From the NCBI RefSeq assembly GCF_056712565.1, contig NZ_CM160072.1: a stretch of 64,000 bases of DNA; one strand, written 5' to 3'. A program made the position numbers. This document shows positions 1-3,000 of this stretch, piece by piece (position 1 is the first letter of the stretch; every line of letters begins with the position of its first letter).

Positions 1-3000
1 GGGTCAGGAGCCAGCAAAGGTCGCGTCCGGGTTTCGCATTCATCAGCGCACTGACGGTTTCGATAAAATCCATACCAAACCAGGTCTGTCTGCTGTTGAA
101 GGCGTTGTCATGTTCCCACGGCAGACGAAGCAGGATCCGCCGTACCCGGGAGCAGGACTGTTCACGCAGCGCACGCTCAAGAACGCCGATGACTTTGCTC
201 TGATAAGATGGCCAGAAGGGGGCAAGGCTATCGTCGAAATAAGGAATAGCATTCATAAGATATGCTCCGTTATGCGCAGCCCACAACGCGTCCTGCCCGT
301 GAATGAGCTGACGTGTTATGGTTTGCGGATGGGGTTGATGGAATACGTGAAGAACCGAAACAGAACGGGAAGATCAGGTCACCGACAAGAGGCGAACACC
401 GGATACAGGTTCAGGATGAATGATCTCCGTTGACTTCGGTTCACATCATTAAGCAGAGCGGTAAGTTTTTACTAACGGAGTATTTCCGGGCCAGGAAACT
501 CAAGGTTTAATCTTCACTTCTGAAGCTTACGTGGACGCCCTGCTGCAGGACGCTCAGGAACTTCACTGCAGCCGTAGGCACACAGCCCGTCTTTTTGCTC
601 TTCTTTCGCCAGATAATGCAGGGCACCGCGAATATTATCGATGCTTTCAGGCTCGTTATGGCGCACAGGAATGTTGATGTTGTATGTATAATGCGGCTGA
701 TATGTACAGCAGTGCGCCGAACCGCTGTTATGCGTAATAGACCGCCAGCATTCCGTAATCCGCTCCGCAAAGGGATATATTTTTTTAACCCTCTGACGAT
801 CGATCCAGAAAACCGCATGCGCATGAAAACCATGATCAGCCGTCCATTCAATCACCCAGAAGAAGCCAACGATATTTTCAAATTGTTCCACCTGCTCCAG
901 CAGCATACGCAACTGCAATTCAAGCCAGCGATGATCAGGTTGTAAGAAATCAGGCGTATCTTTCCTGTAGAAGAAATCCATGCGTAAGGCCCGCAGGCAG
1001 GAATAGCGTGCCATCATTTGATTGATGTGATTGTCAAGTAAAGCGGTAAAAAACCAGTTTGGTGTGTAAGATTTAGGCATGTTGATGACTCCTGAAAGTT
1101 AATGATGTTTTAAGCTCTGTGAACGAATTAATGCTTTCGCTCATAATCAGATCTAAAACGGTAATAACTTACAGATGGTATTTATCAGGCATGCTGTAAC
1201 AGAATGGATACGACGGATTATTAACGACACACAGCGTTGTGCTGAAGGGTATGAGTTATCTGATGGCATTGTCTATAGAGATGAGATAAACGAGGTGCGA
1301 AGAAAATACAGATTCAATACAACACAGTGAAATACTAGACTGGCCCCCTGAAATACCAGACAGTAGATGTATCTTAAAATAAGAGGTAGGCTTGGATATA
1401 TGTCTAACACTAGTTCTAATTTTGAGATTGCTGGCGTTTTGTTAGGAAAAGAGGTGCGTAAACGTAAAACACCTCAGAAAAAAAATCGCAATTATTCAAC
1501 AGACTATGGAGCCTGGCATGACTGTGTCCCACGTGGCACGTTTGCATGGCATTCAGCCCAGCCTGTTGTTTAAGTGGAAAAAACAATACCTGGAAGGAAG
1601 CCTCACTGCTGTTGCTGCCGGTGAAGACGTTGTTCCTGCTTCTGAACTGGCCGCTGCGATAAAGCAGATTAATCAGCTTCAGCGTTTACTGGGCAAGAAA
1701 ACAATGGAAGTTGAGATCCTCAAAGAAGCGGTGGAGTACGCACAATCGCGAAAATGGATAGCGCATGTGCCCTTGTTACCTTCGGACAAGGAATAGCTCC
1801 GGTAAGCCGTGTTCTGGGCGTGTCGCGTGCGCAGCTAACATTACGGATGAAGGCATCTGATAACAAGCCAGATAAACGGCGTCAGAGACGCGATGAGGCT
1901 GCGGATGCAGAAGTCTTATCGCGCATCCTGGATATCATTGGCGATATGCCAGCATATGGGTATCGCCGTGTCTGGGCGATACTCAGACGGCAGTCCCGAA
2001 ATGAAGGCTTGCCGTTCGTGAATGCAAAGCGCGTTTACCGAATAATGAGCGAAAACAGCCTGTTGTTGTTACATGACAAACCATCACGGCTGCAGCAGGA
2101 ACATAAAGGCCGAATATCGGTGAAGGAAAGCGACCAGCGTTGGTGTTCTGATGGCTTCGAGTTCGGTTGTGATGATGGCGAAAAAGTCCGGGTTACGTTC
2201 GCCCTGGACTGTTGTGATCGTGAAGCCATCGACTGGGCAGCCAGTACGGGAGGTTACGATAAAGCGACAGTACAGGATGTGATGTCAGGAGCGATAGAAA
2301 AAGGCTTTGGCGATAAAGTGCCGGAAGAGCCCATCCAGTGGCTGACAGATAACGGTTCAGCGTACAGAGCGCATGAAACACGGCAGTTCGCCAGAGAGCT
2401 GAATCTGGAGCCCTGCACGACGGCAGTCAGCAGTCCTCAGAGTAATGGAATGGCAGACGGTTCGTGAAAACGATGAAGGAAGACTACATCGCGTTCATGC
2501 CGAAACCGAATGTAAGAACGGCAGTGCATAACCTTGCAGTAGCGATCGAGCATTACAATGAAAACCATCCGCACAGTGCGTTGGGTTATCGCTCTCCGCG
2601 AGAATATCGACGTCAGCGGGTAACGTTAACTTAAGATACATCCACTGTCTGGCATTTCAAGGGGTGGCTCAAGTTTTTTCAGACAGTTGAACTAGTATAC
2701 CAATACATTCTTGTTCAGCATCAATGATACATGCTTGGTATGTCGGAAAGAAAACAGATGCTTGTTTTACGATATATCCACAGCCATAACATTGATACCA
2801 TTTCCAGCCTTTTTCCTGAATGTAGGAAATATGTAGAAAAAGTGGCAAGACTGATTCGTCTGAGTACCCCTGTTTTTTAGCATTTTCAATGCATAACAAT
2901 TGCGAATTATATGCGTTATCTGATTGAGACAAAAGATATCCATTTTTCTCATGACAACACCATCTCCATTTATTGTCATCAGTTTTATAAAATTTCCATA

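What the first reader, a model, noticed from the sequence alone, without database searches (positions are those of the whole stretch)
2..1080. Tandem YagK/YfjJ-family paralogs sharing a conserved leader element with a third copy
Seen in sequence: two adjacent minus-strand YfjJ-family genes at the window start and a third at 21185..21925; a 65-bp element (410..478) recurs directly upstream of the third copy (21921..21990). Inference: a family-specific regulatory leader. In the first copy the position corresponding to the start codon reads CTG and a stop follows 13 codons later, so its 5' end may be degenerate.
Basis: seen in the sequence. Interest (0 to 1): 0.3.

Follow-up and report, generated by a model that had tools for sequence, protein, structure and literature searches.

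The report
Shared 70-bp head element in island genes
A real, strongly conserved 70-base DNA block sits in front of two distantly related replication-protein-like genes in an E. coli virulence island; it looks like a shared control site, but it is specific to this island module rather than to the gene family, and the first gene's start is intact.

Summary
All three genes belong to the YagK/YfjJ family. Copy 3 matches Pfam directly, copy 2 falls just under Pfam's cut-off, and copy 1 is recognisable only by profile comparison (hhalign 98%). The 65-bp repeat (410-478 vs 21921-21990) is far above chance and occurs exactly twice in the window.

- **Not family-specific.** The element is missing upstream of copy 2, of K-12 yagK and yfjJ, and of distant relatives. 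It is confined to E. coli islands.
- **Two fixed positions.** It heads the Gp2-type gene (copy 3), where it carries the ribosome-binding site and ATG. It also heads the 'copy 1 + AlpA-like regulator' unit.
- **Full arrangement.** In 460 of 5,426 E. coli genomes the two copies lie about 0.93 kb apart and bracket the Gp2 gene. In this window they have been separated.
- **Under constraint.** The block diverges 0.064 per site, against 0.158 at third codon positions of the next gene.
- **Mosaic joint.** It sits between alternative upstream genes and two unalignable spacer types.
- **No known signal.** It matches no Rfam family, has no shared RNA fold and no sigma-70 consensus promoter.
- **Copy 1 is not 5'-degenerate.** Its own ribosome-binding site and ATG at 256 are invariant, and its N-terminus is complete.

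Most likely it is a protein-bound operator or promoter block. Interest is modest.

The parts
1..256 (-). First 85 codons of copy 1. The full gene is 191 aa and continues left of the window, followed by an AlpA-family HTH gene. It is a divergent YagK/YfjJ paralog that has lost the catalytic motifs (EYH instead of HYH; no YxxK).
   Evidence: hhalign 98%, E 2.5e-13; AlpA Pfam hit.
257..420 (-). Variable spacer between the element and copy 1's real start. It comes in two unalignable types (A here, B in L005-L007). It ends in copy 1's own conserved ribosome-binding site (GGAG, 269-266) and ATG (256-254).
   Evidence: alignment; (spacer divergence 0.47 between types, about 0.09 within a type).
421..487 (-). 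Conserved block of the 'copy 1 + AlpA' unit: GGAAAT..GGAGATCA. It contains the dyad GTAA-N4-TTAC (472-462), AATGATGTGAA (450-440), GTCAAC (434-429) and a vestigial ribosome-binding site GGAG (428-425). The part shared with copy 3's element is 410-478. The vestigial start CTG is at 414-412.
514..1080 (-). Copy 2, a YagK/YfjJ protein of 188 aa with HUH (HAH) and YLAK motifs. It is one of two alternative genes found upstream of the block and has no copy of the element upstream of itself.
   Evidence: alternative alleles.
1081..1336 (-). The remaining 256 nt of the roughly 1-kb conserved non-coding region that precedes copy-2-type genes. Here it is cut by an IS3-family element.
   Evidence: IS3 annotation.
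21083..21095 (.). Breakpoint of the copy 3 cassette. Homology to complete Gp2-element-copy1-AlpA modules ends at 21084, exactly where the downstream block would begin. The copy1/AlpA unit is missing here.
21129..21152 (-). Intrinsic-terminator-like hairpin followed by a T-run, just after the stop codon of copy 3. It is conserved after Gp2-type genes in other islands.
21185..21925 (-). Copy 3, an 'inovirus Gp2 family' YagK/YfjJ protein of 246 aa. It has the HYH and YLVKYETK motifs, a predicted HUH-nuclease fold, and a disordered insertion at residues 153-189.
21921..21990 (-). Gp2-type copy of the element. It carries the real ribosome-binding site (GGAG, 21939-21936) and ATG (21925-21923) of copy 3, AATGATGTGAA (complement of 21956-21966) and the dyad GTAA-N4-TTAC (21977-21988).
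21991..23600 (.). A 1.6-kb stretch upstream of copy 3 without supported genes. It is A/C-rich on the + strand, carries AAAACACCAGAAMC repeats, and is conserved with the cassette in other islands.

Best explanation
The repeat is a conserved cis-acting block of about 70 bp. It marks the head of two units in a regulatory or replication-like module of E. coli genomic islands of the CP4-57/P4 type.

Unit 1 is the Gp2-type YagK/YfjJ gene, a predicted HUH Rep-like nuclease. Here the block ends in the gene's ribosome-binding site and ATG.

Unit 2 is a catalytically degenerate YagK/YfjJ paralog (copy 1) followed by an AlpA-family DNA-binding protein. Here the block lies about 165 nt before the true start and keeps only a dead ribosome-binding site and start.

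I propose that the block is a protein-binding operator or promoter region that puts both units under common control by one of the island's own DNA-binding proteins. The candidates are the dead Rep paralog, the Rep-like protein and the AlpA-like protein. The recognition features would be the GTAA-N4-TTAC dyad, the invariant AATGATGTGAA, and GTCAAC-like repeats about 10 nt apart.

Shown: the repeat, its position and orientation, its constraint, its module boundaries and its distribution. Inferred: protein binding, promoter activity and co-regulation.
For: - **Real and exclusive.** The repeat is far above chance and has only two copies in the window.
- **Same side, same orientation.** Both copies lie upstream of, and in the same orientation as, a YagK/YfjJ-family gene. 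In complete modules (L006, L007, L022, L023) the two copies are direct repeats 931-936 bp apart, with the Gp2 gene and its terminator between them.
- **A terminator precedes the downstream copy in Gp2-type loci.** The next unit therefore needs its own start signal or regulated read-through.
- **Constraint.** Across 10 loci the block diverges 0.064 per site, against 0.158 at third codon positions of copy 1 and 0.26 in the adjacent spacer. Some pairs have identical blocks next to flanks that differ by 26-47%.
- **No homogenisation.** The two types keep fixed differences (a 5-nt indel and the dyad centre) even when they are 0.93 kb apart, so the similarity is old and maintained rather than recent conversion.
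- **Module head.** All four combinations of upstream gene (copy-2 type or Gp2 type) and spacer type (A or B) exist. The copy 3 cassette in the window breaks exactly at the block's 5' edge.
- **Co-occurrence.** The Gp2 cassette and the copy1 unit are found in about 1,870 genomes each, and their union is 1,913 of 5,426. They therefore nearly always share a genome, although they are adjacent in only 460.
Against: - No sigma-70 consensus promoter is found on the sense strand in either copy.
- The 5-nt indel changes the spacing between the conserved halves.
- In copy-2-type loci, as in this window, no terminator separates copy 2 from the block. The block could therefore simply be transcribed inside an operon.
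- No binding protein or transcription start has been tested.
- The genome co-occurrence figure is derived from summary counts, not from a per-genome table.
- E. coli island variants are closely related, so the constraint estimate rests on limited divergence.
Confidence: 0.5

Rival explanations
1. RNA-level leader. The block acts in the transcript, as a translational operator or a target of an RNA-binding protein or small RNA. It would control the real ribosome-binding site of the Gp2 gene and act as a decoy or standby site ahead of copy 1.
For: - The block contains the Gp2 gene's ribosome-binding site and ATG.
- The Gp2-type copy folds into a hairpin that buries the ribosome-binding site and AUG (z -2.65; 1 of 200 shuffles folds as well).
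- In copy-2-type loci the block is probably inside the mRNA, because no terminator precedes it.
- A ProQ/FinO-family gene lies beside the module in L006, L007 and L020.
Against: - The copy-1-type block does not fold better than shuffles (z -0.24).
- The consensus structure of both types is worth only -2.5 kcal/mol and has no compensatory pairs.
- There is no Rfam match.
- The sequence after GGAGATCA is not conserved.
Confidence: 0.13
2. Recombination joint. The block is kept mainly because it is the homologous crossover point at which alternative island modules are exchanged, and it has no regulatory role of its own.
For: - It is a patch of near-identity between unrelated or unalignable flanks, and all four flank combinations are observed.
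- The Gp2 cassette has the same 3' breakpoint in the window, L011, L016 and L017.
Against: - A 67-nt patch is a poor substrate for homologous recombination.
- The joint model does not explain why a second, diverged copy sits at the Gp2 start with a working ribosome-binding site.
- It does not explain why the two types keep fixed differences.
- Upstream of the Gp2-type copy the homology continues for more than 450 nt, so that copy is not a module boundary.
Confidence: 0.15
3. Rep recognition site. The block is the cognate binding or nicking site (origin-like) of the HUH Rep-like YagK/YfjJ proteins. Two direct copies would bracket a 0.93-kb unit that could be nicked, replicated or released by rolling-circle chemistry.
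For: - Pfam REP_ORF2-G2P and PHROG replication-initiator families are hit.
- Rep origins commonly lie just upstream of rep and contain phased repeats, as this block does.
- Complete modules carry direct copies flanking the gene.
Against: - Neither DNA strand forms a hairpin that is significant against shuffles (z -0.7 to -1.5).
- The CTTGAT resemblance to phiX174/pC194 nick sites is not conserved among variants.
- The element is absent from all other YagK/YfjJ loci examined, including copy 2, which has intact catalytic motifs.
- Cassette homology does not end at the upstream copy.
Confidence: 0.12
4. Neutral relic. The similarity is leftover sequence from the duplication that made the paralogs, or from a recent patch of gene conversion, and has no function.
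For: The two downstream genes are paralogs, and the copy-1-type block carries a dead ribosome-binding site and start.
Against: - The proteins are below 20% identical while the 65 bp are about 79% identical.
- The block evolves 2.5 times more slowly than silent sites of the adjacent gene.
- The fixed type-specific differences argue against ongoing conversion.
Confidence: 0.05

Closest known systems
Operator/promoter blocks shared by adjacent units of mobile-element control regions (for example the repeated operators of phage and satellite immunity regions, or the AlpA-controlled units of CP4-57 and Gram-negative PICIs)
   Same: - A short, conserved, oriented non-coding block stands at the head of neighbouring units in an island that also encodes an AlpA-family DNA-binding protein.
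- It contains a dyad and phased short repeats.
- It lies at a mosaic module boundary.
   Different: - No binding protein, promoter or transcription start is known.
- No sigma-70 consensus was found.
- K-12 CP4-57 (alpA-yfjI-yfjJ) and CP4-6 (yagK) lack this sequence.
Double-strand origins and iteron regions of HUH Rep replicons (pMV158 RepB direct repeats plus nick hairpin; parvovirus/AAV Rep-binding repeats; CRESS-DNA virus iterons next to the stem-loop)
   Same: - The block lies directly upstream of a gene whose product has the HUH motifs and fold.
- It has short repeats at about one helical turn.
- A second copy lies downstream of the gene.
   Different: - There is no significant hairpin and no conserved nick-site motif.
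- It is not found next to other members of the family.
- One of the two associated proteins has lost the catalytic residues.
YagK/YfjJ family (Pfam PF11726, 'inovirus Gp2 family'), related to REP_ORF2-G2P (PF23343)
   Same: - Copies 2 and 3 carry RVDL-like, HUH and YxxK motifs.
- Copy 3 passes the Pfam cut-offs.
- Tandem pairs of an intact and a degenerate member next to an AlpA gene also occur in distant relatives (L014).
   Different: - Copy 1 is so divergent that no library model detects it.
- Its subfamily is essentially restricted to E. coli and lacks the first His and the Tyr motif.

Membership tests
YagK/YfjJ family (PF11726) | Copy 3 matches the family model above the curated cut-off | tested here: met
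   E 1.2e-34, 120 bits against a cut-off of 25.8. It also hits PF23343 at 35 bits against 27.8.
YagK/YfjJ family (PF11726) | Copy 2 matches the family model above the curated cut-off | tested here: inconclusive
   24.2 bits, just under the 25.8 cut-off. It hits PHROG 7120 at 3e-9, RefSeq names it 'YagK/YfjJ domain-containing', and HAH and YLAK motifs are visible in the translation.
YagK/YfjJ family (PF11726) | Copy 1 is homologous to the family | tested here: met
   There is no direct Pfam, NCBIfam or PHROG hit. Profile-profile comparison gives 98% probability, E 2.5e-13, over 152 columns. Its 33-34% identical relatives P0076 and P0082 carry PF11726.
HUH endonuclease (Rep) superfamily | HUH metal-binding motif and a catalytic Tyr motif (YxxK) | tested here: met
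   H101, H103, Y213 and K216/K220 are nearly invariant in 21 family members, including copy 3. Copy 2 has HAH and YLAK. Copy 1 does not meet this feature: it has EYH and no Tyr.
HUH endonuclease (Rep) superfamily | HUH nuclease fold | tested here: met
HUH endonuclease (Rep) superfamily | Site-specific ssDNA nicking with a covalent 5'-phosphotyrosine link | not testable with these tools
   This needs biochemistry.
Rolling-circle origin (dso) as the identity of the 70-bp block | A stable hairpin presenting a conserved nick sequence | tested here: not met
   DNA folds of both strands of both copies give z -0.7 to -1.5. The CTTGAT-like stretch varies among loci.
Sigma-70 promoter as the identity of the block | -35 and -10 hexamers with 16-18 nt spacing on the sense strand | tested here: not met
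   The scan finds none in 1-1400 and none at the element in 20400-22600. By eye, the best candidate is on the opposite strand (TTCACA-16-TAAGTT or TAAAAC, 8-9 of 12).
Structured cis-regulatory RNA leader / known Rfam family | A conserved secondary structure supported by covariation, or a match to a curated model | tested here: not met
   There is no Rfam match at E<=1 or at gathering score. The consensus fold is -2.5 kcal/mol with 0 compensatory pairs.
   It is absent upstream of copy 2, K-12 yagK and yfjJ, and the remote relatives in L012-L014. A scan of one genome per species (100,044 species) finds it only in an E. coli-like MAG.

The most novel reading that the evidence does not exclude
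The block is the cognate DNA site of the island's HUH Rep-like proteins. An intact nuclease (Gp2 type) and a catalytically dead paralog (copy 1) would both recognise it. The dead copy would act as a repressor or origin-binding accessory, so that widespread E. coli pathogenicity islands would carry a cryptic rolling-circle-type replication or mobilisation module. In complete modules the two direct sites would bracket a 0.93-kb unit.
Probability: 0.12. Interest if true: 0.6.

Novelty: new member of a known kind. Interest (0 to 1): 0.3.

Why it matters
YagK/YfjJ genes are among the uncharacterised 'y-genes' of E. coli and are present in about a third of complete E. coli genomes within virulence and defence islands. 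This analysis makes three points.
- The family has the fold and motifs of HUH replication nucleases.
- It often occurs as an intact plus a degenerate pair next to an AlpA-type regulator.
- One E. coli lineage of the module has a sharply conserved 70-bp site at the head of both units.

Together these give a concrete, cheap experimental handle (one DNA fragment, three small proteins) on how these island modules are controlled.

In itself, a conserved upstream block shared by two neighbouring genes is an ordinary kind of feature. It would become important only if the block proves to be a Rep recognition site.

Tried and rejected
1. **Chance similarity.** Rejected by shuffles and blastn.
2. **Truncated or degenerate 5' end of copy 1.** Rejected. 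The ribosome-binding site and ATG are conserved, the N-terminus is conserved, and the profile alignment starts at residue 15 of copy 1 against residue 7 of copy 3. Translating the spacer in three frames shows no similarity to the Gp2 N-terminus beyond the two codons inside the element.
3. **Spacer as a decayed duplicate of the copy 1 5' coding region.** The short repeats seen in L005-L007 have inconsistent offsets and are absent from the window's spacer type. I treated them as chance.
4. **A diverged copy upstream of copy 2.** A by-eye resemblance (GTAAGTTATTACCG...) was not recovered by an nhmmer profile built from 11 element sequences.
5. **Known RNA family.** None was found.
6. **Shared RNA structure.** None was found.
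7. **ssDNA origin hairpin.** Not significant.
8. **phiX174/pC194-type nick motif CTTGAT, CRP half-sites (TGTGA), FNR and IHF consensus.** I inspected these by eye against the multi-locus alignment. The required bases are either not conserved or mis-spaced in one of the two types.
9. **Integron attC-like cassette site.** There are no core or inverse-core motifs and no integron integrase.
10. **Small ORFs in or near the element** (window 110-433 +, 22030-22278 +, the 49-aa + strand ORF annotated in type-B spacers, 20879-21097 -). None has family support, and the spacer ORF is absent from type A.
11. **Viral-contig scans with copy 1 and copy 3.** Only one locus was recovered.
12. **The only 'phage' hit** is an unverified 4.5-kb low-coverage contig.
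13. **Literature** on YfjJ/YagK, AlpA islands and PafR. Nothing concerns this element.
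Full report
**Where this is.** The window is 100% identical to the pheV-side pathogenicity island of extra-intestinal E. coli (S88, APEC O1, ATCC 11775 and many others). Using S88 as a guide, the region just left of the window holds the pap fimbrial operon and then, all on the minus strand, the genes below.
- An AlpA-family helix-turn-helix gene (Pfam Phage_AlpA, E 2e-10).
- A 191-aa 'hypothetical protein'.
- A 188-aa 'YagK/YfjJ domain-containing protein' (copy 2, 514-1080).

An IS3 element follows at about 1337-2634. Copy 3 (21185-21925, minus strand, 246 aa, 'inovirus Gp2 family protein') lies 20 kb away. On one side it is bounded by ireA. On the other side it is bounded by a long non-coding stretch that leads into the usual CP4-type island genes (GTPase, DUF932, antirestriction, RadC-like, CbtA/CbeA).

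**Are the three genes one family?**
- Copy 3 is a clear member: PF11726 at E 1e-34, plus PF23343 REP_ORF2-G2P above its cut-off.
- Copy 2 falls just under the Pfam cut-off but hits a related PHROG.
- Copy 1 hits nothing in Pfam, NCBIfam or PHROGs, and pairwise BLASTP between the three is at noise level.
- Copy 1's own family is tiny and essentially confined to E. coli. An exhaustive HMMER search found two full-length relatives at 33-34% identity, P0076 and P0082, and both carry PF11726.
- A profile of copy 1 and its relatives aligns to a profile of 21 YagK/YfjJ proteins, including K-12 YfjJ and YagK, with 98% probability and E 2.5e-13 over 152 columns.

Tandem pairs of an intact and a copy-1-like member next to an AlpA gene also occur in a distant relative (L014).

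**What the proteins look like.**
- The family alignment keeps an RVDLR strand, an HYH motif and a YLxKxxTK motif. These are the three signatures of HUH rolling-circle nucleases.
- Copy 2 has the motifs (HAH, YLAK).
- Copy 1 and its relatives have lost the first histidine (EYH, CYH or FYH) and have no tyrosine motif. Copy 1 is therefore most likely a non-catalytic derivative.

**The repeat.**
- Window 413-475 aligns to 21926-21988 with 50 of 63 identities and one 5-nt indel. The blastn E-value is 2e-6 and the Smith-Waterman score is 45, against 17.9 +/- 2.3 in shuffles.
- There are no further copies in the window by motif search or by an nhmmer profile.
- In gene orientation both copies read as follows: dyad GTAA-N4-TTAC; CGC; two to three variable bases; TG(A/C)T(T/G)AATGATGTGAA; GTCAAC-like repeats about 10 nt apart, where the indel lies; then GGAGATC.
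- In copy 3 the GGAG is the ribosome-binding site, and ATG follows 10 nt later.
- In the other copy the matching triplet is CTG (414-412) and a stop follows as the 12th codon.

**Copy 1's start is intact.** In a 10-locus alignment of the region between the upstream gene and copy 1, 'GGAGCATATCTTATGAATGC' (ribosome-binding site and the ATG at window 256) is conserved, with a single G/A change in the ribosome-binding site. The N-terminus MNAIPYFD is conserved. The profile alignment puts copy 1 residue 15 opposite copy 3 residue 7. The roughly 165 nt between the element and this start is a spacer that exists in two unalignable versions. The pseudo-start region is variable and is deleted in L007. 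So the CTG is a fossil inside the element, not a damaged gene start.

**Where else the element occurs.**
- It is not a property of the family. It is absent upstream of copy 2, whose own 1-kb upstream region is conserved among copy-2-type loci but unrelated.
- It is also absent upstream of K-12 yagK and yfjJ and from the loci of remote relatives.
- An exact-pattern scan of one genome per species found it only in an E. coli-like MAG, plus two chance hits.
- Within E. coli it is common. The Gp2-type copy and the copy-1-type intergenic region are each found in about 1,870 of 5,426 complete genomes. A query covering both finds 1,913 genomes in all. By arithmetic on these counts they nearly always share a genome.
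- In 460 genomes the arrangement is complete: element, Gp2 gene, terminator, element, spacer, copy 1, AlpA. The two elements are direct repeats 931-936 bp apart.
- In about 1,500 genomes, as here, a copy-2-type gene replaces the Gp2 gene in front of the copy-1 unit, and the Gp2 cassette sits elsewhere.
- In the window, the Gp2 cassette's homology to complete modules ends at 21084, exactly where the downstream block would begin.

**Is it constrained?** Over 10 loci the 67-nt block (window 421-487) differs by 0.064 per site on average. The figure is 0.158 at third codon positions and 0.045 at first and second positions of copy 1, and 0.26 in the spacer. Some locus pairs have identical blocks although the adjacent gene differs by 26% at silent sites and the spacers are unalignable. 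The two element types keep fixed differences even when 0.93 kb apart, so they are not being homogenised. All four combinations of upstream gene type and spacer type exist, so the block is also a mosaic joint.

**What it is not.**
- It has no Rfam match.
- It has no shared RNA fold. The Gp2-type copy alone can hide its ribosome-binding site and AUG in a hairpin (z -2.65). The other copy folds no better than shuffles, and the consensus has no compensatory pairs.
- Neither DNA strand forms a significant hairpin.
- No sigma-70 consensus promoter is found.

**Most likely mechanism.** The block is sequence-conserved, structure-free and oriented, and it stands at the head of two neighbouring units. 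In Gp2-type loci it comes directly after a terminator. The island encodes three small nucleic-acid-binding candidates. This is best read as a protein-bound operator or promoter region that couples expression of the Rep-like gene and of the 'dead Rep + AlpA' unit. I give this about 0.5. The rivals are an RNA-level operator, a pure recombination joint, a Rep recognition or nick site, and a neutral relic. They are weighed in the structured fields. None is excluded by computation alone.

**Verdict.** The thing is an uncharacterised but ordinary kind of cis element, with a narrow distribution and modest interest. The more interesting by-product is the picture of YagK/YfjJ as an HUH Rep-like family that occurs as intact and degenerate pairs.

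Noticed in passing
window 21991-23600: About 1.6 kb upstream of copy 3 has no supported gene. The + strand is strongly A/C-rich (AT skew up to +0.54, GC skew down to -0.47), GC content is 32-43%, and there are several AAAACACCAGAAMC-like repeats. The stretch is conserved with the Gp2 cassette in other islands.
   Followed up: partly
window 21185-21925 and 514-1080; L001 7681-8256: The YagK/YfjJ family has HUH-nuclease motifs and a predicted HUH fold. Copy 1's subfamily has lost the first His and the catalytic Tyr motif, so the tandem pair is one intact and one degenerate member.
   Followed up: yes
window 21359-21469 (residues 153-189 of copy 3): E. coli Gp2-type proteins carry a Ser/Pro/Asp-rich insertion of about 40 residues. 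It is predicted to be disordered (pLDDT below 50) and is absent from relatives in other genera.
   Followed up: partly
window 21129-21152 (-): An intrinsic-terminator-like hairpin plus T-run lies right after copy 3. It is conserved after Gp2-type genes elsewhere, and no equivalent follows copy-2-type genes.
   Followed up: partly
window 1081-1400: The conserved non-coding region of about 1 kb that precedes copy-2-type genes is cut to 256 nt here by an IS3-family insertion. Copy 2 may therefore have lost its native upstream signals.
   Followed up: partly
L006 643-1119, L007 596-1104, L020 1-276: A ProQ/FinO-family gene (frameshifted in L007 and L020) and a UCP030791-family gene lie next to the copy1/AlpA unit in several islands. 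UCP030791 also follows the copy-1-like gene in the remote loci L012-L014.
   Followed up: no
L005 2838-2987, L006 2829-2987, L007 2837-2986 (+ strand): RefSeq annotates a 49-52-aa 'hypothetical protein' on the opposite strand inside the type-B spacer. Type-A spacers, as in the window, have no equivalent and there is no family support, so it is probably spurious.
   Followed up: partly
window 16564-16680 (-) and 52067-52105 (-): Two Rfam gathering-level hits: the ALIL frameshift pseudoknot in an IS3 element and a JUMPstart element in the capsule region.
   Followed up: no
window 1400-18355 versus S88: S88 feature coordinates are shifted by +1 relative to the window from somewhere between 1400 and 18355 onward. 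The window's source therefore differs from S88 by at least one 1-nt indel.
   Followed up: no
L024 (OR844780.1) 277-843: The only 'phage' record with a relative of copy 3 (39% identity) is an unverified, unannotated 4.5-kb contig with 3.7x coverage from a phage preparation. It is probably host DNA.
   Followed up: partly
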